A stretch of DNA of 64,000 nt from a virus. Where the stretch lies: the IMG/VR virus record IMGVR_UViG_3300025584_000449, positions 64,001 to 128,000 of that record. One strand, written 5' to 3'. Position 1 is the first letter of the stretch; each line of letters opens with the position of its first letter. Made by a program: the position numbers and the translations under genes. Shown one piece after another: positions 52,422-60,315 of the stretch. Under the pieces are notes generated by a model. The model searched no databases. It saw only the letters and a program-made list of their open reading frames with translations, and was not told where the DNA came from.

Positions 52422-52708
52422 TTATTTAAAAGTGTCGTCTTTTCCCCACCTGTCTTTACGCAACAGTAAAGTTATTATTGCGTAATTAGCGAGGTCTGCT
52501 AATGAGTCGTCTATGCTTTCATCGCTTACTTCAGCTTCTTGATTATCCCACATTAGTTGTTTTAGTCTATTTATTTATCAGACATTCTAACAAAACAGCC
52601 CTTCTCTCCAAGTATCTCAATATTGGCTGAGCCGTAGTCGTGGTTTTTCTTCTTCGCTAAGCTGTATAGCTTTTTCTGCATATCCTCAAAATGACTTAGT
52701 GAATCCAA
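52422..52708 (-). pseudogene. DUF1599-like (nucleotide modification-associated) gene with 1-nt frameshift
   Basis: KNHDYG...GCFVRMSDK / INRLK...ESIDDSLADLANYAI; one A missing in GATAAATAAAT near 52572-52578. Confidence 0.7.
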
Positions 52709-53199
52709 CAGTCTCCGATCACAGGTTCTACTTCCATAGGCACTGACGGAGCATAATGATTAAACGCTTTTATCATTTCTAATGATAACATGCCCGCGAC
52801 TTCATCAACTTCATCCTTATGTACTTCTAATAAAATTTCGTCGTGAACTGCGTTGATTATCATAGCATCATATTTGTTATCTCTAATTGATTCACTCGTT
52901 TTCCATAAAGCTCGTTTAGTAACACTAGAACCAGTACCCTGGAATGGTAAGTTTTTAGCAATGTTCATAGCATGGCTATGATGTTTTGGATTATCAAAAT
53001 CCATTGAACTTAAATCTCTTCGTCTACCATCAAGCGGGCTAAATGCGTATCTTAAATCTTCTGCACTGTCGGTAAAATCTTTAATTAGTTTAGCGATTTT
53101 AGGGAAGGTTAAGAAGTAAGATCTTAATAAGCCAGATGCTTCAGGTATTGAAATTTTTAGAACAGCTGATAATCTCTTAGCACCCATTCCGTAAATAAC
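52696..53199 (-). CDS. polA: family A DNA polymerase, exon 2
   Basis: VIYGMG completes motif B; N.P.QG; motif C NAVHDE. Confidence 0.9.
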   Translation of the reverse strand, partial: VIYGMGAKRLSAVLKISIPEASGLLRSYFLTFPKIAKLIKDFTDSAEDLRYAFSPLDGRRRDLSSMDFDNPKHHSHAMNIAKNLPFQGTGSSVTKRALWKTSESIRDNKYDAMIINAVHDEILLEVHKDEVDEVAGMLSLEMIKAFNHYAPSVPMEVEPVIGDCWIH

Positions 53200-53741
53200 C
53201 AGGAACCCTCTGGTTTACCAGAGGCCCGGACTATCCCTTTATGTAACGACCTGTTACTTGGTCTCGTGTGCAATGGTGTTTTTGATGACATTTCTTACAT
53301 AGAACTTCTAAATTTTCTATATTATTATTTTGTCGATTATGATCTTTATGATGAGTCAGGATATTTTTTTCTGACTCACATCGATTACAAGTTTTACCAT
53401 AATATTCAAAAGCCCGTAAACTAAAATTTCTTATTCCGTTTTTATACATGTGGTTATCTTTTCCTGATTGATTACCACCAGAACCACTATATGGTTTTTT
53501 AATTAAACCTTTTTTAATTCTCCACGCGTGAGAGTTAAATGCGTTTCTACATTTATCTGAACAGAATTTTTGTCTACGTTTTGGAAGTACATTGTCACAC
53601 TTTTTACATACTCGTCGTCTAGTCTCTACACTTTCCTGCTTCTTCAGGCTTAGCTCGGGATTGCCACCACCATTATGTGCTGAGGTTTCCCCGAATTTGG
53701 CGAGTTTGTTTTCGGCATTATTTATTTTATTCATTATTCAT
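53200..53741 (-). mobile_element. group I intron in DNA polymerase motif B
   Basis: 5' exon ends in U, intron ends in G; P1 UUUCGGU/GCCGAAA with U-G wobble; P10 UAAAUAAU/GUUAUUUA; P, Q, R, S elements at 53685-98, 53649-62, 53616-31, 53228-39; P9 hairpin; splicing restores KAINFG-VIYGMG. Confidence 0.92.
53231..53734 (-). CDS. intron-encoded HNH homing endonuclease
   Basis: CNRC...THHKDHNRQNNNIENLEVLCKKCH; N-terminal CxxC..FCS..C. Confidence 0.85.
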   Translation of the reverse strand: MNKINNAENKLAKFGETSAHNGGGNPELSLKKQESVETRRRVCKKCDNVLPKRRQKFCSDKCRNAFNSHAWRIKKGLIKKPYSGSGGNQSGKDNHMYKNGIRNFSLRAFEYYGKTCNRCESEKNILTHHKDHNRQNNNIENLEVLCKKCHQKHHCTRDQVTGRYIKG

Positions 53742-54995
53742 ACCGAAATTGATGGCTTTAGCGGCATCACGCTCTTCTTTAGTAATACTATCATAGTTTC
53801 TATTGAACAGGATAGCGGCACAGTAGGCATGCAAATCTTTTCCAGTTCTCAAACATTCAATAAACTTATCTTCTTCACTCATATGAGCTAGTAGTCTAAG
53901 TTCCTGATTTGCGAAGTCCGCTGCGACTATTCTATAGTCTAGATCTTGTGCTGTAAAAGCAGCACGATATACAGCACCTGCTGGTATATTCTGCATATTA
54001 GGTTTGGTACTGGCATATCTACCAGAGTCTGTGTTACCTAATTGCCAGAAACTAGAATGAACTCTACCTGTTACAGAGTTTACATTATTATCTAGAAATT
54101 CCTGTCCGTATGTAGTAACTAATTTCTTTCGTTTTCTGTACTCTAGTAATAGTTTAATTACTGCATGATTTTGTTTTTCAAGTTCTTGTTTATTAGTAGA
54201 GGTTAATGTTACATTACATATCTTAGGCAATAATTCCAACATTTGTTTAGGAGAATCATAATTTACCGTAGGTGACCCAAAAAGATCTACTGAGCAGTGT
54301 GGAGCGAACGCTTCATCCAGCTCAACCTTTAAATCAATAGCGGCCTTTAATGCTATATCTTTTAAGGCAAGCCATCTTTTTCTATCTAAGTGTATACCAT
54401 TCAATTCTAACTCAGCCGTAGCCCGCACAGTAGAATTTTCTAAATGGGCTAGTTTACTCATATCTCTTTGTCTGATAAACTTGTCCAATTTAGTATGCAG
54501 CGGTAATAAGTATTTAACGTCATCACCAGCATACTTAATTTGTTCCTCTGAAAATTGATCACCAAACTTCATACCTACGAAGCTTTTCTGTAAATCCTTA
54601 GAGACAGTCTCTCCAAGATATTTATCTACTACTGCGTCAAAACTATGTTTTGGTATGTTTTTACCCTGTGTCAACAAGTAATCTGCTAATAATGTGTCTT
54701 TCATATTTAAAAGATCAATGTCAAAATTAGCCCTGGTCATAACATAGTCAAACTTAGAGTTGTGTGCTACTTTAGCAGTATCAGGCTTTGCTAGTAATTC
54801 TAGAACAGGAAATATACTAGTACCAAGTCTCGCAACATCTAGTACATACTGAGTATGCTCGGTGCCTATTTGTATTAGAAGTACTTCATTCGTATGAGGA
54901 TCTAGTCCATTAGTTTCTACATCATACCCGATTATACCTCTAGTTTTTATAAACCTCTCTACTATTGGCACATCTTCTGGTTTTGAAATAAACAT
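53742..54995 (-). CDS. polA: family A DNA polymerase, exon 1 (3'-5' exonuclease + polymerase)
   Basis: ExoI YDVET, ExoII HNSKFD, ExoIII YAGDD, motif A DFANQELR, motif B KAINFG. Confidence 0.92.
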
Positions 54996-55888: not shown

Positions 55889-56164
55889 TTACTTTCTCTT
55901 CTTAGTAACTTCAGGCTTTCCGCCATTAGTAGCAGCTTTATGAGCACTATATAGCATAGTACCACCGCCACCTAGTAAGAACGCATCAGTAAGCAGCGCT
56001 TGCATTTGTACGCCTTGTTCTGATCCCCAGATACCGGCAACTAATGCGCCAAGTGCAAATGGGATTAAAGGCCACAATCTCTTAGGAACAGCGCTTTTTA
56101 CATAGTTAGTAACAATAGGAATACCAACCACGGCAATCGCATAAATTGAGTCAAAGTCTAACAT
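55889..56164 (-). CDS. holin-like membrane protein
   Basis: hydrophobic helices, basic C-terminus; start probably upstream (MENNKLC). Confidence 0.5.
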   Translation of the reverse strand: MLDFDSIYAIAVVGIPIVTNYVKSAVPKRLWPLIPFALGALVAGIWGSEQGVQMQALLTDAFLLGGGGTMLYSAHKAATNGGKPEVTKKRK

Positions 56165-56263: not shown

Positions 56264-56860
56264 TTAAAAATTAAAAGAAAATACGGGTGGACTAGTGTCA
56301 AATCTATGCCAATTAAGGATATACTGAGATCCTATCACAGCCACAATTTTATTTCCTTGTTGGATGATATCATTATCTAGCTCAAACTGTAGCTGACAAC
56401 TTCCATCTTCCGCATCCTCTGGACCTAATGTATCTAACATTTTTTCCAAAGTATTCTTTTCAGATGTAGTAAAGGCAGCTATTGTTCTACCTTCTGATCT
56501 TAAATCGATCCAATGGGTTCGACTATAAACATGACAATATTCAAATAAGAGCCGCCTGAACTTTGGGTTGTCCACGGCACTTACAATACAATCATATCCG
56601 TATAAATCTCTTTCATCTGTAATTCTTTTTTCTAAAGCTTTAAACCCATATCTAGCATGTAATACTGCTGCTTTAGGGTCCATTATATCTTCGTCTTCAA
56701 AATTTTGATAAGAAATATTTTTTGCTTCTACGTGGTCATCGTCTGCTATAGTTATTTCTACGTTACTGTCAGGTAATTGTTCCCAACAAATTAAGTCGTA
56801 TAAATTAGCAGCAAGCCAACTTCCTATTCCACCAGCACCTACAATTAATATTTTTTTCAA
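56264..56860 (-). CDS. E1-like/ThiF-family adenylating enzyme
   Basis: IVGAGGIGS, DDDHVEAKN..Q, SAVDN..R, candidate catalytic Cys in GSCQ. Confidence 0.9.
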   Translation of the reverse strand: MKKILIVGAGGIGSWLAANLYDLICWEQLPDSNVEITIADDDHVEAKNISYQNFEDEDIMDPKAAVLHARYGFKALEKRITDERDLYGYDCIVSAVDNPKFRRLLFEYCHVYSRTHWIDLRSEGRTIAAFTTSEKNTLEKMLDTLGPEDAEDGSCQLQFELDNDIIQQGNKIVAVIGSQYILNWHRFDTSPPVFSFNF

Positions 56861-57312
56861 GTTACTAGTTCTCTTTCATCTATGTCATGACATATAGCTG
56901 GTACCCACATAAGATGTTCCCGATCACCATTATAATAGTAAACACCAAAGGTCTTATATTTAGGAGAATATATAATGTATATTCCCTTATAACCGGCCTC
57001 TCGAACGTCTGTTATTGAGGGATATGGTTTGTTATTAGGATGTGTATGGTACACCCCTATAAAATCATACTTAGCATCATCGTTATAATGAGTGGTCTCT
57101 TTTATAACATTTAACCATTCTTCTGGGTGAGGCTGGTAATCTTCTTTACCATTGAGTCCTGCTATTACATTGGTAAGTGGTATAAACTTTTCTATGTGCC
57201 ATTCGTTTTTGATTTTAGTGCCGATAAAAGCCCCGCACACCTCGTGCACGGGGCTTGAATCGCCATATATTTTTAACTCCTGAACTATCTCAGGAGTAAT
57301 GAAAACTTCCAT
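56857..57312 (-). CDS. JAB/MPN+ metallo-isopeptidase
   Basis: EVCGAF and YHTHP....PS.TD JAMM motif. Confidence 0.9.
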   Translation of the reverse strand: MEVFITPEIVQELKIYGDSSPVHEVCGAFIGTKIKNEWHIEKFIPLTNVIAGLNGKEDYQPHPEEWLNVIKETTHYNDDAKYDFIGVYHTHPNNKPYPSITDVREAGYKGIYIIYSPKYKTFGVYYYNGDREHLMWVPAICHDIDERELVT

Positions 57313-57536
57313 TAGCCACCAATTAGTGTGTTAGCTAAAGTGATGTCTTCAGCATTTAAAAGATCTTCAATGCCCACAGTGTCAGGATTAACCTGACGGC
57401 CATCTACATAAGCCCACTTACTGTTGTTTGTGCATTGCTCTTGCAACTCTGCAAGGGCCTCTGCACCAGTGCCTTGAAACTCTGTGTGACCTTCAGCGGA
57501 TACGATCTTTAATGTGATTTCTTTTTCTTTTGCCAT
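57312..57536 (-). CDS. ubiquitin-like (beta-grasp) protein ending in GG
   Basis: 74 aa; WAYVDG, DITL..LIGG-stop; between large ORF and JAB. Confidence 0.8.
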   Translation of the reverse strand: MAKEKEITLKIVSAEGHTEFQGTGAEALAELQEQCTNNSKWAYVDGRQVNPDTVGIEDLLNAEDITLANTLIGG

Positions 57537-57551
57537 AGTTTTTCTCTTTAT

Positions 57552-59930
57552 TTAAAGTGTAGTTATTTCTTTTGCTACTAAGTCATCGTTGTGTAGTGCA
57601 TATAATCTATTTACTAGCCTATCCATACCAACTTGAGCAGCATTTCCTTTATCAACAATACAAATATACTTTCCAGAATTGTAGTCAAAGACCTTGCAAT
57701 CATTGTGATTATTAGAGTCAGGCTCTAATGATCCTTTTTCAACAAAGTAAGTTCTTATTTTGCCTTTTATTTTATACCCTTTGACTCTTCCTCTAGTGGT
57801 GTCTTTTGTTTCCTCTGTTAATTTAAATAACTTAATGGTGTCAGTTAGTAGTTCCTGACTCTTCTTTAAAGCTTCAACATAAGCTTTTCGTCCAGCAGTT
57901 ATAATATCTTTAACATCGTCTACGGTTACACCCTCTACTATTTTTTCATTAAGTAGTAGATCTACCACATCTAAAATACTTCTTTTATTTGATATTGTCA
58001 AGAATCTATTTGTATTACGAATTCTGTATGAGTTCCCATCTAGAACCATAGAGGTTGTACGACCTTTTCTAGTAATCGGGAATTTTATAGAGAATTGATT
58101 GTAATTATTATGTCCTGGAGATGACCCCATTACATCACTTACTCCACTAATATTAATACCACGGTGCAGTAATTTATGTAATTTTAACGAACATTTTCTA
58201 ACCGAGTCTAGGAAATAATCGAAGTCCTCCTGGGTCTCAAAGCACAAAGCTCGCTCGAGACATTCATCAACTTCATTCTTATTAATACGATTTTCATTAA
58301 TGTAGTATCTTGTAGAGGTCACACCTCTTGTAGAGGTGGATGATTTTATCTCAAGATTAAAATTAACGTTACCTATTGTACCAGCGGTGCTCTTACTACC
58401 CAGACTTAAATAACTTAAAAATGTTGCGTAAACAAGATCCCAGTCAATGGAATTAGGATCTGTGTTTCTTAACATCTTATCAAATACATCATTAAGCCAT
58501 CTGTCGTGCCCTGTATAGGTATTCTTATCAATAGAAAGTGTTTGTCCTGCGTAACTAATAGAGTCCTCAGTTATATCAATACCGTTTAATTTAGTTTTCT
58601 TTATTGTTTCTAAATTATTAATAACTTTGGTTATCTTCTTAGTCATTATGTTTTTACTTTGAACTACTTTTTGAGTGCGTTCTTCTTTTTTCATGTGCAG
58701 TCTCAAGATAGTATTCAAAGTACCATTATCTAAAACAACAACTCTATCTTCACTAGCCTTTGTCTTTAGATAATTTTCGATTATTACTTTATTAAGCATA
58801 ACCGGGGCAGGGTCTGTTAATACAGCTTCACCCAGCGTTAGTAATGGGTCATCATTACCTCTATTTGCCACAGTACCATCAGGACCAAGCTTGTAATATA
58901 CTAAGTGTCCAGCATCAGCGTAGTCATACCAAGAACTAGTTGCTTCTACTTTAAACCAACTAAAGTAATCTCCTGCACAAAATTCTGCTGCGTTATGAAT
59001 TCGTGGAGTGTTGTAATAAGGAAATGTACTTGAGCTACCGACTACACAATATCTAGTGTTATGATGTTCATATACTGAATGTATGTATCTAAACTTGTTA
59101 TTTTCTTTTAATAACTCTAGTTGCTCAGGAGTAGGCTCTTTAGTAGTAATCTTATCAAAGTTTGTTGTATAAGATTCTTTTAAAAATAAATCTATCTCAT
59201 TTATCTTTAATCCAGAAGCGTTAGAATTATATCCACGCCTGCTGCTTAAGAGCCAATTACCAAAACTATTTATTGGCAGAGTTGAGTCTTTGCCAAAATA
59301 AAAGTTTTTTGTATAAGATAGAGCAACCTGTGCATTACTAAAATGACAGGTACCCAATAACTGAAATTTATTATTGTTCTCTCCGTACCCTCTGTTTCTA
59401 TCTAGAAATGAGTTATAACTGGAGAATCGTTCTTGAATTTTACTTATCTTTTCAAGATCAGCTAGATCTGTATCCTTTAATGAATCAATAATAAAGGTGT
59501 CTTTATCAGTAATAATAGGACAGTTACTTCCATAGTTATTAGTCTTTGTCAATGAATAAAAGAATTTTATCTTTCCTTTAGGTATCATCTTATTTATACT
59601 TTTAACTTGCTCTTCTGGCAAAGTTTCAAAAAGTTCACCTATGTCTTGATTAATTTCTTTTGCCCAATCGTAATTAGCTATAGCAGTTGTTACGTCACCC
59701 TGTGAAGTAAAGTTATAGTCATTATCCAGTAAAAACTGATGGTAAGCTAACATTTTTCCTGTATTAAATAAAAACCCTATATGACTTCTTAAACTACTAT
59801 CCCCAGACTGTAATACTGGGCTTGACTTAAACTTAAACGAGGTCTTTTTAAGTAAGTCATAGTCTGCTTCTTCAAATCCTAGATCATATAATGCGTTTAT
59901 TACTTTTAATCTACCGGACGGTATTCTCAT
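57552..59930 (-). CDS. 792-aa hypothetical protein heading the Ubl operon (candidate E2-containing or substrate)
   Basis: co-oriented, 15 nt from Ubl; C-terminal SGKYICIVD. Confidence 0.65.
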   Translation of the reverse strand: MRIPSGRLKVINALYDLGFEEADYDLLKKTSFKFKSSPVLQSGDSSLRSHIGFLFNTGKMLAYHQFLLDNDYNFTSQGDVTTAIANYDWAKEINQDIGELFETLPEEQVKSINKMIPKGKIKFFYSLTKTNNYGSNCPIITDKDTFIIDSLKDTDLADLEKISKIQERFSSYNSFLDRNRGYGENNNKFQLLGTCHFSNAQVALSYTKNFYFGKDSTLPINSFGNWLLSSRRGYNSNASGLKINEIDLFLKESYTTNFDKITTKEPTPEQLELLKENNKFRYIHSVYEHHNTRYCVVGSSSTFPYYNTPRIHNAAEFCAGDYFSWFKVEATSSWYDYADAGHLVYYKLGPDGTVANRGNDDPLLTLGEAVLTDPAPVMLNKVIIENYLKTKASEDRVVVLDNGTLNTILRLHMKKEERTQKVVQSKNIMTKKITKVINNLETIKKTKLNGIDITEDSISYAGQTLSIDKNTYTGHDRWLNDVFDKMLRNTDPNSIDWDLVYATFLSYLSLGSKSTAGTIGNVNFNLEIKSSTSTRGVTSTRYYINENRINKNEVDECLERALCFETQEDFDYFLDSVRKCSLKLHKLLHRGINISGVSDVMGSSPGHNNYNQFSIKFPITRKGRTTSMVLDGNSYRIRNTNRFLTISNKRSILDVVDLLLNEKIVEGVTVDDVKDIITAGRKAYVEALKKSQELLTDTIKLFKLTEETKDTTRGRVKGYKIKGKIRTYFVEKGSLEPDSNNHNDCKVFDYNSGKYICIVDKGNAAQVGMDRLVNRLYALHNDDLVAKEITTL

Positions 59931-59949: not shown

Positions 59950-60315
59950 TTAGTTTTTAAGGATACTTAGTACTAAGAATCCATTATCGTCATTATCTGC
60001 GTTTACCTCTTTACCTATTAATTCCTGTAATGAGTTAACTTCGTAGAATTTAATTAATTTCGCTAACCCAGTATAACTGGATAGTTCTCCATCGTCATTT
60101 ATATTGATCCAAAGTCCTGCTTTTTTAGATTCTCCACGATCCTCTAGAAGAAGGTCACTAATCTTGAACTCTCTTCCTTCTGCATCGCGGACTGTAAAAA
60201 TGGCTTTACTGCTAGGACCACTCGGTAAATTAACTTCTTCTTGGTCAATATTTATGACTGTTACTGTCTTATTGGAGCGTCCTACTCCAATGTTTAAAAA
60301 ATCTTTATCGTTCAT
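59950..60315 (-). CDS. hypothetical protein
   Basis: 121-aa ORF, coupled overlap. Confidence 0.55.
   Translation of the reverse strand: MNDKDFLNIGVGRSNKTVTVINIDQEEVNLPSGPSSKAIFTVRDAEGREFKISDLLLEDRGESKKAGLWININDDGELSSYTGLAKLIKFYEVNSLQELIGKEVNADNDDNGFLVLSILKN

What the first reader, a model, noticed from the sequence alone, without database searches (positions are those of the whole stretch)
56264..59930. Phage-encoded ubiquitin-like conjugation cassette: large protein - Ubl(GG) - JAB - E1/ThiF
Seen: four tightly coupled minus-strand genes in the replication module: a 74-aa beta-grasp-like protein ending LIGG-stop, a JAMM-motif JAB (YHTHP..PS.TD), an E1/ThiF enzyme (GAGGIG, DDDHVE..N, AVDN..R, lone Cys in GSCQ, no obvious CxxC pair) and a 792-aa unknown. 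Established: E1+JAB+Ubl(+E2) sets mediate protein conjugation in bacterial defence (CBASS Cap2/Cap3, Bil systems) or sulfur transfer (ThiS/ThiF, MoaD/MoeB, CysO/Mec). Inference: the Ubl is encoded already mature, so the JAB would be a deconjugase, pointing to reversible tagging run by the phage, e.g. to modify host proteins or jam host Ubl-based defence. No desulfurase, rhodanese or thiamine/Moco gene lies in the window to favour sulfur relay.
Basis: partly seen in the sequence, partly recalled or inferred. Interest (0 to 1): 0.9.

Follow-up and report, generated by a model that had tools for sequence, protein, structure and literature searches.

The report
Phage-encoded ubiquitin-like conjugation module
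A deep lineage of large uncultured aquatic phages carries its own ubiquitin-like tagging kit (activating enzyme, a probable conjugating domain hidden at the end of a 792-aa protein, the tag itself and a trimming protease); until now such kits were known only as bacterial anti-phage defences.

Summary
Window 56264-59930 (minus strand) encodes four tightly packed genes: a 792-aa protein (BIG), a 74-aa protein ending LIGG-stop, a JAMM/JAB peptidase and a 198-aa ThiF/E1.

New here:
- The 74-aa protein models as a beta-grasp (pLDDT 84). Its best structural matches are SUMO, ISG15 and ubiquitin.
- Its GG is invariant in 53 clusters. Forty-three end at GG and ten carry 1-9-residue tails.
- The E1 aligns end to end with ThiF/MoeB. 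Its only invariant Cys sits on their conserved Cys.
- The cassette recurs in 25 distinct versions, with BIG down to 24% identity. Terminase divergence tracks BIG divergence. No relative was found in 185,579 cellular genomes.
- A complete 215-kb relative lacks any JAB, and its Ubl ends at GG.

It fails the membership tests for Bil, Bub, CBASS Cap2/3, PRTRC and the ThiF/MoeB equivalogs.

Best reading (0.6): a thioester E1-E2-Ubl cascade run by the phage. Target and biological role are unknown. Sulfur relay is not excluded. I found no prior description. Earlier notes of this scan on this genome were unchecked first-reader notes on the same stretch.

The parts
59950..60315 (-). UP: conserved 121-aa protein of unknown fold, no Cys, immediately upstream of BIG. 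Possible fifth member of the module.
   Evidence: Found directly upstream of BIG in 19 of the 24 other distinct cassettes by profile. No Pfam, PHROG, NCBIfam or PDB-sequence match.
57552..59930 (-). BIG: 792-aa protein. The N-terminal ~430 aa are variable and the C-terminal ~360 aa conserved. The family is found only in viral or metagenomic DNA.
   Evidence: 504 family representatives at E<=1e-3. Invariant R293, D339, Y728, C757 and D782 in 132 sequences. AF2 pLDDT 80.9, pTM 0.75. No Foldseek PDB match. No relative in 185,579 species genomes.
57555..57866 (-). E2-like (UBC/UEV/RWD-fold) C-terminal domain of BIG, aa ~689-792. The invariant Cys757 (codon 57660-57662) lies in the loop between beta4 and the following helix.
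57312..57536 (-). Ubl: 74-aa beta-grasp protein ending GG-stop (GG codons 57315-57320).
   Evidence: AF2 pLDDT 84 with beta-beta-alpha-beta-beta-(alpha)-beta order. Foldseek top hits are SUMO, ISG15, Ub, NEDD8 and FAT10, probability ~1, TM ~0.5. GG invariant in 53 clusters: 43 end at GG and 10 have 1-9-aa tails.
56857..57312 (-). JAB/JAMM metallopeptidase, 151 aa, with an intact E24...H89xH91...S99..D102 site.
   Evidence: Pfam Prok-JAB E 1.4e-13. PADLOC JAB models to E 5.5e-9. Best NCBIfam hit is desampylase at 61.6 bits, below its 130-bit cut-off. Catalytic residues invariant.
56264..56860 (-). Minimal E1/ThiF-type adenylating enzyme, 198 aa, a single adenylation domain. The invariant crossover-segment Cys155 is at codon 56396-56398. 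No Zn-binding CxxC pairs and no rhodanese or CYS domain.
   Evidence: Pfam ThiF E 1.8e-15. Global hhalign to bacterial ThiF/MoeB-type proteins: probability 99.8%, E 1.2e-26, 190 columns, with C155 aligned to their conserved Cys. Invariant G8, G10, G11, D40, D42, N48, K63, D97, R102, R121 and C155. PDB profile hits include a ThiF-type protein (9egc), UBA3, MccB, TcdA, SAE2, Cap2, UBA5, ThiF and MoeB.

Best explanation
The cassette is a phage-owned, thioester-type ubiquitin-like protein conjugation system.

Proposed steps:
1. The 198-aa E1, probably a homodimer like ThiF, MoeB and UBA5, adenylates the C-terminal Gly of the 74-aa Ubl and takes it onto Cys155 in its crossover segment.
2. The Ubl passes to Cys757 of the UBC-like domain at the C-terminus of BIG.
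3. From there it goes to a lysine of a target. The large non-E2 part of BIG would choose that target, as the E2 is proposed to do in Bil systems, which have no E3.
4. The JAB trims Ubl precursors that carry residues after GG, and may also remove conjugates.

The module sits in the replication and transcription arm of the genome and is inherited vertically in a deep lineage of 130-215-kb myoviruses. It therefore looks like part of the phage's core programme rather than a swappable accessory gene.

Shown here: the folds and families of E1, JAB and Ubl, the invariant residues, the co-occurrence and the restriction to viruses.
Inferred: the E2 identity of BIG's C-terminus, thioester transfer, conjugation to protein, and the target (host or phage protein, unknown).
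For: - E1, JAB and Ubl identities.
- GG is invariant in 53 clusters, with short tails in 10, which is typical of an activated and processed C-terminus.
- E1 Cys155 is invariant and aligns with the conserved Cys of ThiF/MoeB-type enzymes.
- BIG residues 689-792 match UBC/UEV/RWD chains in at least 27 of 50 top rows, including the prokaryotic E2s BubB and Cap2. Cys757 sits between beta4 and the next helix and is invariant in 132 sequences.
- No other E2 (UQ_con) is encoded in the genome.
- BIG, Ubl and E1 are kept in almost every cassette, including the JAB-less complete genome. In the one exception (L036) the Ubl is only plausible. Gene order is conserved down to 24% BIG identity.
- The Ubl's structural neighbours are conjugated Ubls, with no ThiS or MoaD among the listed rows.
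- No desulfurase, rhodanese or PP-loop enzyme in the 180-kb genome.
Against: - Pfam, PADLOC and PDB-sequence profiles find no E2.
- hhalign against Prok-E2_A gives 0.2% probability.
- The domain has no HPN motif.
- The E1 replaces the Arg of the usual N-L-x-R-Q ATP-binding motif with Tyr or His.
- A minimal ThiF-like E1 with a crossover Cys is also what sulfur-carrier systems use, and JAB trimming of GG-tails also occurs there (from my own knowledge: QbsE/QbsD, CysO/Mec).
- No target, expression data or biochemistry exists, and no cultured phage carries the module.
Confidence: 0.6

Rival explanations
1. E2-independent conjugation, as in archaeal SAMP/UbaA or Thermus TtuB/TtuC. The E1 alone activates and transfers the Ubl. 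BIG is not an enzyme but the dedicated substrate or scaffold that gets tagged. The JAB is a desampylase-like deconjugase and processor.
For: The JAB's best named relative is the haloarchaeal desampylase (61.6 bits), and the E1 weakly matches the SAMP-activating E1. There is no sequence-detectable E2. BIG always accompanies Ubl and E1, as a dedicated substrate would.
Against: An invariant Cys in a UBC-like domain at the canonical E2 position is hard to explain for a passive substrate. The Lys next to it (CIVDK) is not invariant in the divergent clade. Both NCBIfam matches are far below their cut-offs.
Confidence: 0.15
2. Sulfur-carrier system. The E1 adenylates the Ubl, a host persulfide donor converts it to a thiocarboxylate, and BIG uses that sulfur to make a thio-modified nucleotide, cofactor or metabolite. 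The JAB only matures the carrier.
For: The E1 is a minimal ThiF/MoeB-type domain whose Cys aligns with theirs. Its named matches include ThiF and MoeB models. The module lies among nucleotide-metabolism genes. Host IscS could supply the sulfur, so the absence of a phage desulfurase is not decisive.
Against: No desulfurase, rhodanese or PP-loop thiolase anywhere in the genome. Scores on the ThiF and MoeB equivalogs are 16-35 bits against cut-offs of 159-449. The Ubl's structural neighbours are SUMO, ISG15 and Ub rather than ThiS or MoaD. BIG shows no known sulfurtransferase fold, and its only recognisable domain is UBC-like.
Confidence: 0.12
3. Counter-defence by interference. The phage components exist mainly to neutralise host Ubl-based immunity (Bil, Bub, type II CBASS), for example the JAB stripping host Ubl from phage tail proteins or the E1/Ubl acting as decoys, rather than to tag targets productively. 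This is a reading of the biological role and overlaps with the best explanation, which leaves the role open.
For: The known bacterial E1/E2/JAB/Ubl systems are anti-phage (PMC11601596; bioRxiv 10.1101/2023.09.04.556158). The N-terminal half of BIG diverges fast, as expected in an arms race. The JAB resembles Cap3-type JABs in PADLOC.
Against: The JAB is the one dispensable part. The cassette is syntenic and appears vertically inherited across a deep lineage whose terminase diverges in step, unlike typical mobile anti-defence genes. The phage E1 has no close affinity to Bil, Bub or Cap2 E1s.
Confidence: 0.08

Closest known systems
Bil systems (BilA Ubl, BilB E2, BilC JAB, BilD E1), a bacterial anti-phage defence
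   Same: Same four activities, no E3, a C-terminal Gly on the Ubl and a JAB peptidase. Thioester chemistry is implied by conserved Cys residues on the E1 and the E2-like domain.
   Different: BilD is a tandem IAD-AAD-CYS E1 (PMC11601596). Here the E1 is one 198-aa ThiF-like domain with the Cys in the crossover segment. The E2-like domain is fused to ~690 aa of unknown folds. The Ubl has one beta-grasp. The system is encoded by a virus, not a defence island, and was not found in 185,579 cellular genomes.
Iyer-Burroughs-Aravind operon type 6d / PRTRC cassette (Ubl + JAB + E1 + E2-like + fast-evolving helical protein on mobile elements; PMC1779556)
   Same: Same part list, including an extra rapidly diverging large component. 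The E1's best NCBIfam match is PRTRC_ThiF. Equating operon type 6d with PRTRC is my own recollection and was not checked here.
   Different: That match (48 bits) is barely above what ordinary ThiF/MoeB genes score on the model (27-44 bits), while true members score 269-343 bits. My JAB, Ubl and BIG profiles hit nothing in a genuine PRTRC locus.
Archaeal SAMP/UbaA/HvJAMM1 and Thermus TtuB/TtuC systems
   Same: A minimal ThiF/MoeB-type E1, a small GG-ended beta-grasp and a JAMM peptidase. The JAB's best named relative is the desampylase.
   Different: Those systems have no E2 and double as sulfur carriers. Here an E2-like domain with an invariant Cys is always present. All family scores are far below cut-off.
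Lambda/T1-type tail-assembly Ubl (TAPI) with a JAB-NlpC protein (TAPK)
   Same: The only phage Ubl + JAB association I found described in the papers searched (PMC1779556).
   Different: That pair has no E1 or E2, lies in the tail module, and its Ubl is the N-terminal domain of a larger protein. This cassette has an E1 and an E2-like domain and lies in the replication arm.
Bub (6E/DUF6527) operons
   Same: E1, E2, Ubl and a JAB that processes a precursor at the conserved Gly. BubB is among the structural matches to BIG's C-terminus.
   Different: Bub E1 and E2 lack catalytic Cys and work through oxyesters, and every Bub operon has the BubE/DUF6527 protease (PMC11601596). Here both Cys are invariant and the genome has no DUF6527.

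Membership tests
Ubiquitin-like beta-grasp modifiers | beta-grasp fold (beta-beta-alpha-beta-beta-(alpha)-beta) | tested here: met
   AF2 pLDDT 84. The top Foldseek PDB hits are SUMO, ISG15, Ub, NEDD8 and FAT10 at probability 0.97-1.0 and TM ~0.5.
Ubiquitin-like beta-grasp modifiers | Conserved C-terminal Gly(-Gly), exposed or exposable by a peptidase | tested here: met
   GG invariant in 53 clusters: 43 end at GG and 10 have 1-9-aa tails.
Ubiquitin-like beta-grasp modifiers | Covalent attachment to target proteins | not testable with these tools
   Needs biochemistry.
E1/ThiF/MoeB adenylating enzymes | Rossmann-type adenylation domain with a GxGxxG loop, an Mg-binding Asp and an Arg after the xDN motif | tested here: met
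   Pfam ThiF at 57 bits against a 28.1-bit cut-off. Global hhalign probability 99.8%. Invariant G8, G10, G11, D40, D42, D97 and R102. The Arg of the N-L-x-R-Q motif is replaced by Tyr or His.
E1/ThiF/MoeB adenylating enzymes | Reactive Cys in or near the crossover loop | tested here: met
   C155 is the only invariant Cys and aligns with the conserved Cys of bacterial ThiF/MoeB-type proteins. That this is the crossover-loop Cys (MoeB C187, ThiF C184) comes from my own knowledge.
JAB/JAMM metallopeptidases | The E...HxH...S..D zinc site within a JAB fold | tested here: met
   Prok-JAB at 51 bits against a 25-bit cut-off. E24, H89, H91, S99 and D102 invariant.
UBC/E2 superfamily (BIG aa 689-792) | UBC fold: N-terminal helix, four-stranded antiparallel sheet, then a helix | tested here: inconclusive
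UBC/E2 superfamily (BIG aa 689-792) | Catalytic Cys in the loop after beta4 | tested here: met
   C757 lies between strand 747-749 and helix 770-780. It is invariant in 132 and in 22 sequences.
UBC/E2 superfamily (BIG aa 689-792) | Sequence-profile match to UQ_con or a Prok-E2 family, and an HPN-type motif | tested here: not met
   No UQ_con or Prok-E2 hit even at E<=10. hhalign against Prok-E2_A gives 0.2%. There is no HPN; the consensus is VYxYPxGxYICIVDK. Only Prok-E2_A was compared profile against profile.
Bil (type I/II) | [quoted passage not shown] | tested here: not met
   The E1 is 195-207 aa in all 22 members and is a single domain aligned end to end with ThiF-type proteins.
Bil (type I/II) | A bacterial defence operon that protects the cell against phage | tested here: not met
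   The cassette is encoded on viral contigs of 50-215 kb that also carry TerL and tail sheath. No BIG relative was found in 185,579 species genomes.
Bub (6E/DUF6527) | BubE/DUF6527 serine protease in the operon | tested here: not met
   PF20137 is not found in the 180-kb genome at E<=1.
Bub (6E/DUF6527) | E1 and E2 lack a catalytic Cys (Tyr/Ser oxyester chemistry) | tested here: not met
   Invariant Cys in both the E1 and the E2-like domain.
Type II CBASS Cap2/Cap3 | E2-E1 fusion protein (Cap2) acting on a CD-NTase | tested here: not met
   The E1 stands alone. PADLOC E1-E2 models match only its N-terminal ~70-110 aa at E>=2e-5. Cap3 scores 24 bits against a 200-bit cut-off. The presence of a CD-NTase was not searched for.
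PRTRC system | PRTRC_ThiF above cut-off together with PRTRC proteins A-F and ParB | tested here: not met
   48 bits against a 144.75-bit cut-off. Generic ThiF genes score 27-44 bits and true members 269-343 bits. The other phage profiles do not hit a genuine PRTRC locus.
ThiS-ThiF / MoaD-MoeB sulfur carriers | Equivalog-level match to ThiF or MoeB, and linked thiamine, Moco or sulfur-mobilising genes | tested here: not met
   ThiF models score 35 and 30 bits against cut-offs of 275 and 159. MoeB scores 16 bits against 449. No Aminotran_5 or Rhodanese, and the one PP-loop hit was a reverse transcriptase. Thiocarboxylate chemistry itself cannot be tested here.

The most novel reading that the evidence does not exclude
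A complete E1-E2-Ubl(-DUB) protein-conjugation cascade that belongs to viruses of prokaryotes. It would be a core, vertically inherited module of a deep lineage of large aquatic myoviruses, absent from cellular genomes, with its own E2 architecture (a UBC-like domain fused to a ~690-aa target-selecting body) and the smallest E1 known to feed an E2. With it the phage would write ubiquitin-like marks on host or viral proteins during infection.
Probability: 0.5. Interest if true: 0.88.

Novelty: new variant of a known kind. Interest (0 to 1): 0.78.

Why it matters
Ubiquitin-like conjugation in prokaryotes has so far been seen as a host weapon against phages (type II CBASS, Bil, probably Bub) or as sulfur chemistry. 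A virus-owned cascade reverses that picture. It would be the phage counterpart of what many eukaryotic viruses do with ubiquitin.

It also offers a very compact E1 (198 aa) and a new E2 architecture for mechanistic work, and it bears on how E1-E2 relays evolved.

The family is large: 504 BIG representatives at 50% clustering. Its sources include ocean metagenomes, so whatever it does is ecologically widespread.

It is directly testable by heterologous co-expression of four small-to-medium genes.

Tried and rejected
- Nucleotide and protein searches of 50,697 deposited phage genomes with the cassette and with BIG found nothing. The E1 gave only distant ThiF hits in jumbo phages with different contexts.
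- Single-sequence pattern scans of IMG/VR failed. The alignment-based scan worked.
- Foldseek of the whole BIG model against PDB gave no match. BFVD gave only three unnamed viral proteins, probably family members.
- The ESM Atlas gave nothing for BIG 430-792 or 665-792.
- Sequence tests for an E2 in BIG's C-terminus were all negative: Pfam at E<=10, PADLOC, a PDB-sequence profile, and hhalign against six Prok-E2_A domains.
- The sub-threshold Pfam DUF7737 hits (5 of 22 fragments, best E 3e-4) could not be interpreted. No paper mentions the family and the controls were uninformative.
- PRTRC membership was considered because of the NCBIfam top hit and the phage ME3 annotation. It was rejected after the control on 400 genomes and a real PRTRC locus.
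- The weak PP-loop hit elsewhere in the genome turned out to be a reverse transcriptase.
- Host inference from the sigma factor and RNR was uninformative.
- UP has no detectable relatives of known function.
- The L036 'Ubl with extension' is not detectably homologous to the Ubl family by hhalign, so it is only plausible. The L033-type Ubl is weakly supported (E 3.6e-4).

Full report
**1. The observation**

The window is bases 64001-128000 of a 179.9-kb IMG/VR virus record with an estimated completeness of 89%. It encodes a terminase, a head protease and a tail sheath, so it is a large myovirus.

On the minus strand, one search gives:
- UP, 59950-60315, 121 aa
- BIG, 57552-59930, 792 aa
- a 74-aa ORF, 57312-57536, ending ...TLIGG-stop
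- JAB, 56857-57312, 151 aa
- E1, 56264-56860, 198 aa, TTG start

The genes overlap or are separated by at most 19 nt. The flanks are a sigma-70-type factor, a split DNA polymerase A, a class II RNR and what reads as a dUTPase. Pfam confirms ThiF (E 1.8e-15) and Prok-JAB (E 1.4e-13). PADLOC's Cap2-type E1-E2 and JAB models match more weakly.

One detail of the finding is inexact. The E1 has four Cys, not one, but only C155 in GSCQ is invariant.

**2. Conservation**

BIG has no match in 50,697 deposited phage genomes. It does have four metagenomic homologs at 33-36% identity. Three of their contigs were fetched and all show the same order: ~130 aa - BIG - small protein - JAB - ThiF, followed by sigma factor and polA.

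An exhaustive profile search found 504 BIG representatives at E<=1e-3. An alignment-based scan of IMG/VR returned 34 loci on contigs of up to 215 kb. Scoring every locus with HMMs of the five proteins gave these results:
- There are 25 distinct cassettes.
- All of them have BIG and E1.
- Twenty have UP-BIG-Ubl-JAB-E1 in that order.

In the divergent clade, where BIG is 24-27% identical, my profiles missed some parts, but inspection finds them. A ~100-aa protein ending GG-AN or GG-TH lies upstream of BIG, with weak hhalign support for homology to the Ubl family (E 3.6e-4). A JAB with HTHP...S.(T/I)D is also present in those loci.

The long BIG-bearing records all encode homologs of this phage's terminase, except for two incomplete records. 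Terminase identity is 46-66% in the main clade and 31% in the divergent clade, so it diverges in step with BIG. A contig recovered through the terminase alone also carries BIG. This points to vertical inheritance in a deep lineage rather than a mobile accessory cassette.

Two BIG motifs found no relative in one genome from each of 185,579 bacterial and archaeal species. Within the reach of that method, the family is viral.

**3. The parts**

*Ubl.* With a 53-sequence alignment the AF2 model is confident (pLDDT 84) and has the beta-grasp order with a floppy GG tail. The listed PDB neighbours are SUMO, ISG15, ubiquitin, NEDD8 and FAT10 chains or fusions at probability about 1. GG is invariant. 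Forty-three of 53 clusters stop right after it and ten have 1-9 extra residues. An SxxGH motif in the first hairpin, and W41 and Y43, are also invariant.

*JAB.* E24, H89xH91, S99 and D102 are invariant. The best named relative is the haloarchaeal desampylase, at 61.6 bits against a 130-bit cut-off.

*E1.* A global profile alignment with ordinary bacterial ThiF/MoeB-type proteins covers 190 of 198 residues (probability 99.8%, E 1.2e-26). It puts C155 on their conserved Cys just before the GV...helix. From my own knowledge, this is the crossover-loop Cys (MoeB C187, ThiF C184). So the protein is a whole, minimal E1 without Zn-binding CxxC pairs, a rhodanese domain or an inserted CYS domain. The Arg of the N-L-x-R-Q motif is Tyr or His in this family.

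|---|---|
| Vps23 UEV | 4.9 |
| Ubc9 | 4.5 |
| Tsg101 UEV | 4.5 |
| GCN2 RWD | 4.3 |
| Citrobacter BubCD-BubB-BubA complex 9eav, chain D (I read residues 241-360 as BubB) | 4.2 |
| Cap2, residues 9-148 | 4.1 |

FANCL, Ube2W, Ubc13 and Ube2K are also listed. The secondary-structure order is a helix (670-702), four strands (706-711, 714-722, 727-731, 747-749), a loop and a helix (770-780). That is the UBC core. Cys757, invariant in 132 sequences, lies in the loop after strand 4, where E2s carry their catalytic Cys.

Sequence methods do not support the assignment. There is no UQ_con or Prok-E2 hit at E<=10 and nothing in PADLOC or the PDB sequences. hhalign against six Prok-E2_A domains gives 0.2%. 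I rate the E2 assignment at roughly 75%.

The rest of BIG has no recognisable fold. The invariant R293 and D339 sit in a small beta-barrel region. UP is unassigned.

**4. The JAB**

The family data point first to processing:
- Tails after GG occur in 10 of 53 clusters.
- Every cassette with a tailed Ubl has a JAB.
- One putative Ubl carries ~110 residues after GG.
- The one cassette type without a JAB belongs to a 215-kb genome rated 100% complete. That genome has no Prok-JAB anywhere, and its Ubl ends exactly at GG.

The core of the system is therefore BIG + Ubl + E1. Deconjugation by the JAB is possible but not required.

**5. Mechanism**

The best-supported reading is a thioester relay: E1 adenylates the Ubl Gly, then E1 Cys155, then BIG Cys757, then a target lysine. 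BIG would serve as both E2 and target selector, as is proposed for the E3-less Bil systems (PMC11601596). I give this 0.6. The rivals are:
- E2-less, SAMP-like conjugation with BIG as the substrate (0.15)
- a sulfur-carrier pathway using host persulfide donors (0.12)
- a mainly interfering, anti-defence role (0.08)

Against sulfur relay:
- The genome has no desulfurase, rhodanese or PP-loop thiolase. The single weak PP-loop hit is a reverse transcriptase.
- The ThiF and MoeB equivalogs score far below their cut-offs.
- The Ubl resembles conjugated Ubls.

Sulfur relay is not excluded, because ThiF and MoeB also rely on host sulfur donors.

**6. Comparison with known systems**

- Not Bil: BilD is a tandem IAD-AAD-CYS E1.
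- Not Bub: there is no DUF6527, and Cys is present where Bub has Tyr or Ser.
- Not type II CBASS: there is no E2-E1 fusion.
- Not PRTRC: the E1's 48 bits on PRTRC_ThiF is what any ThiF scores (27-44 bits in 400 genomes, against 269-343 for true members). A real PRTRC locus shares nothing else with the cassette.

The only phage Ubl-JAB association I found described is the lambda/T1 tail-assembly pair, which has no E1 or E2 (PMC1779556). Full-text searches found no report of a phage-encoded E1/E2/Ubl/JAB cassette. The library does not hold most subscription-journal papers.

**7. Verdict**

The feature is real and conserved. It is a new variant of prokaryotic ubiquitin-like conjugation, virus-owned and with a new E2 architecture and a minimal E1. 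The biological target is unknown.

Limits of this work:
- All structures are predictions.
- The E1, the JAB and any complexes were not folded.
- There is no cultured host-phage pair.

The earlier notes of this scan on the same genome were unchecked first-reader notes on the same stretch. One proposed the E2-like Cys loop, which the fold search here supports.

Noticed in passing
window 52696-54995 (minus strand): DNA polymerase A is split into a 422-aa part (53727-54995) and a 163-aa part (52696-53187) by a 167-aa ORF (53231-53734) rich in CxxC and HNH-like motifs. In relatives L002-L004, polA is one 585-596-aa gene.
   Followed up: partly
G000:C1 ~24.1-26.0 kb (locus L044, outside the window): The same phage genome encodes a reverse transcriptase (RVT_1, E 1.9e-25) next to a VWA-domain protein. 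It could be a retroelement such as a diversity-generating one.
   Followed up: no
Relatives G406, G407, G408 (records of L013, L021, L022): The terminase matches in three related 164-210-kb phages each contain 3 in-frame TGA codons. This suggests TGA recoding, or introns, in part of the lineage. My table-11 ORF calls for their cassettes were nevertheless intact.
   Followed up: no
L008, L013, L016/L017, L020-L022, between Ubl and JAB: In several cassettes 0.8-1 kb of extra DNA separates the Ubl and JAB genes. Its content was not examined.
   Followed up: no
L039 (3.5-kb contig binned with a Poseidoniales archaeon MAG): A distant relative of the minimal E1 (33% identity, also with an SCQ motif) is followed by a JAB-like ORF (HTHPG...S..D), with no BIG or Ubl. 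It may be a simpler cousin of the module, or a mis-binned viral fragment.
   Followed up: partly
L052 (Acinetobacter phage vB_AbaM_ME3) and L053 (Bacillus phage vB_BceM_WH1): Cultured jumbo phages carry other ThiF-like genes. In ME3 one lies near a 'PRTRC system protein A'. In WH1 one lies next to a NADAR protein. These are E1-like systems different from the one studied here, and they sit in tractable phages.
   Followed up: partly
window 55889-56164 (minus strand): A 91-aa membrane protein matching a PHROG holin family (phrog_1299, E 1.1e-6) sits between the E1 and the sigma factor, away from any obvious lysis module.
   Followed up: no
BIG C-terminal fragments of L019, L020, L025, L031: There are sub-threshold matches to Pfam DUF7737 (best E 3e-4) over the beta-sheet and Cys loop. 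What DUF7737 is, and whether it is a UBC-like domain, could not be established.
   Followed up: partly
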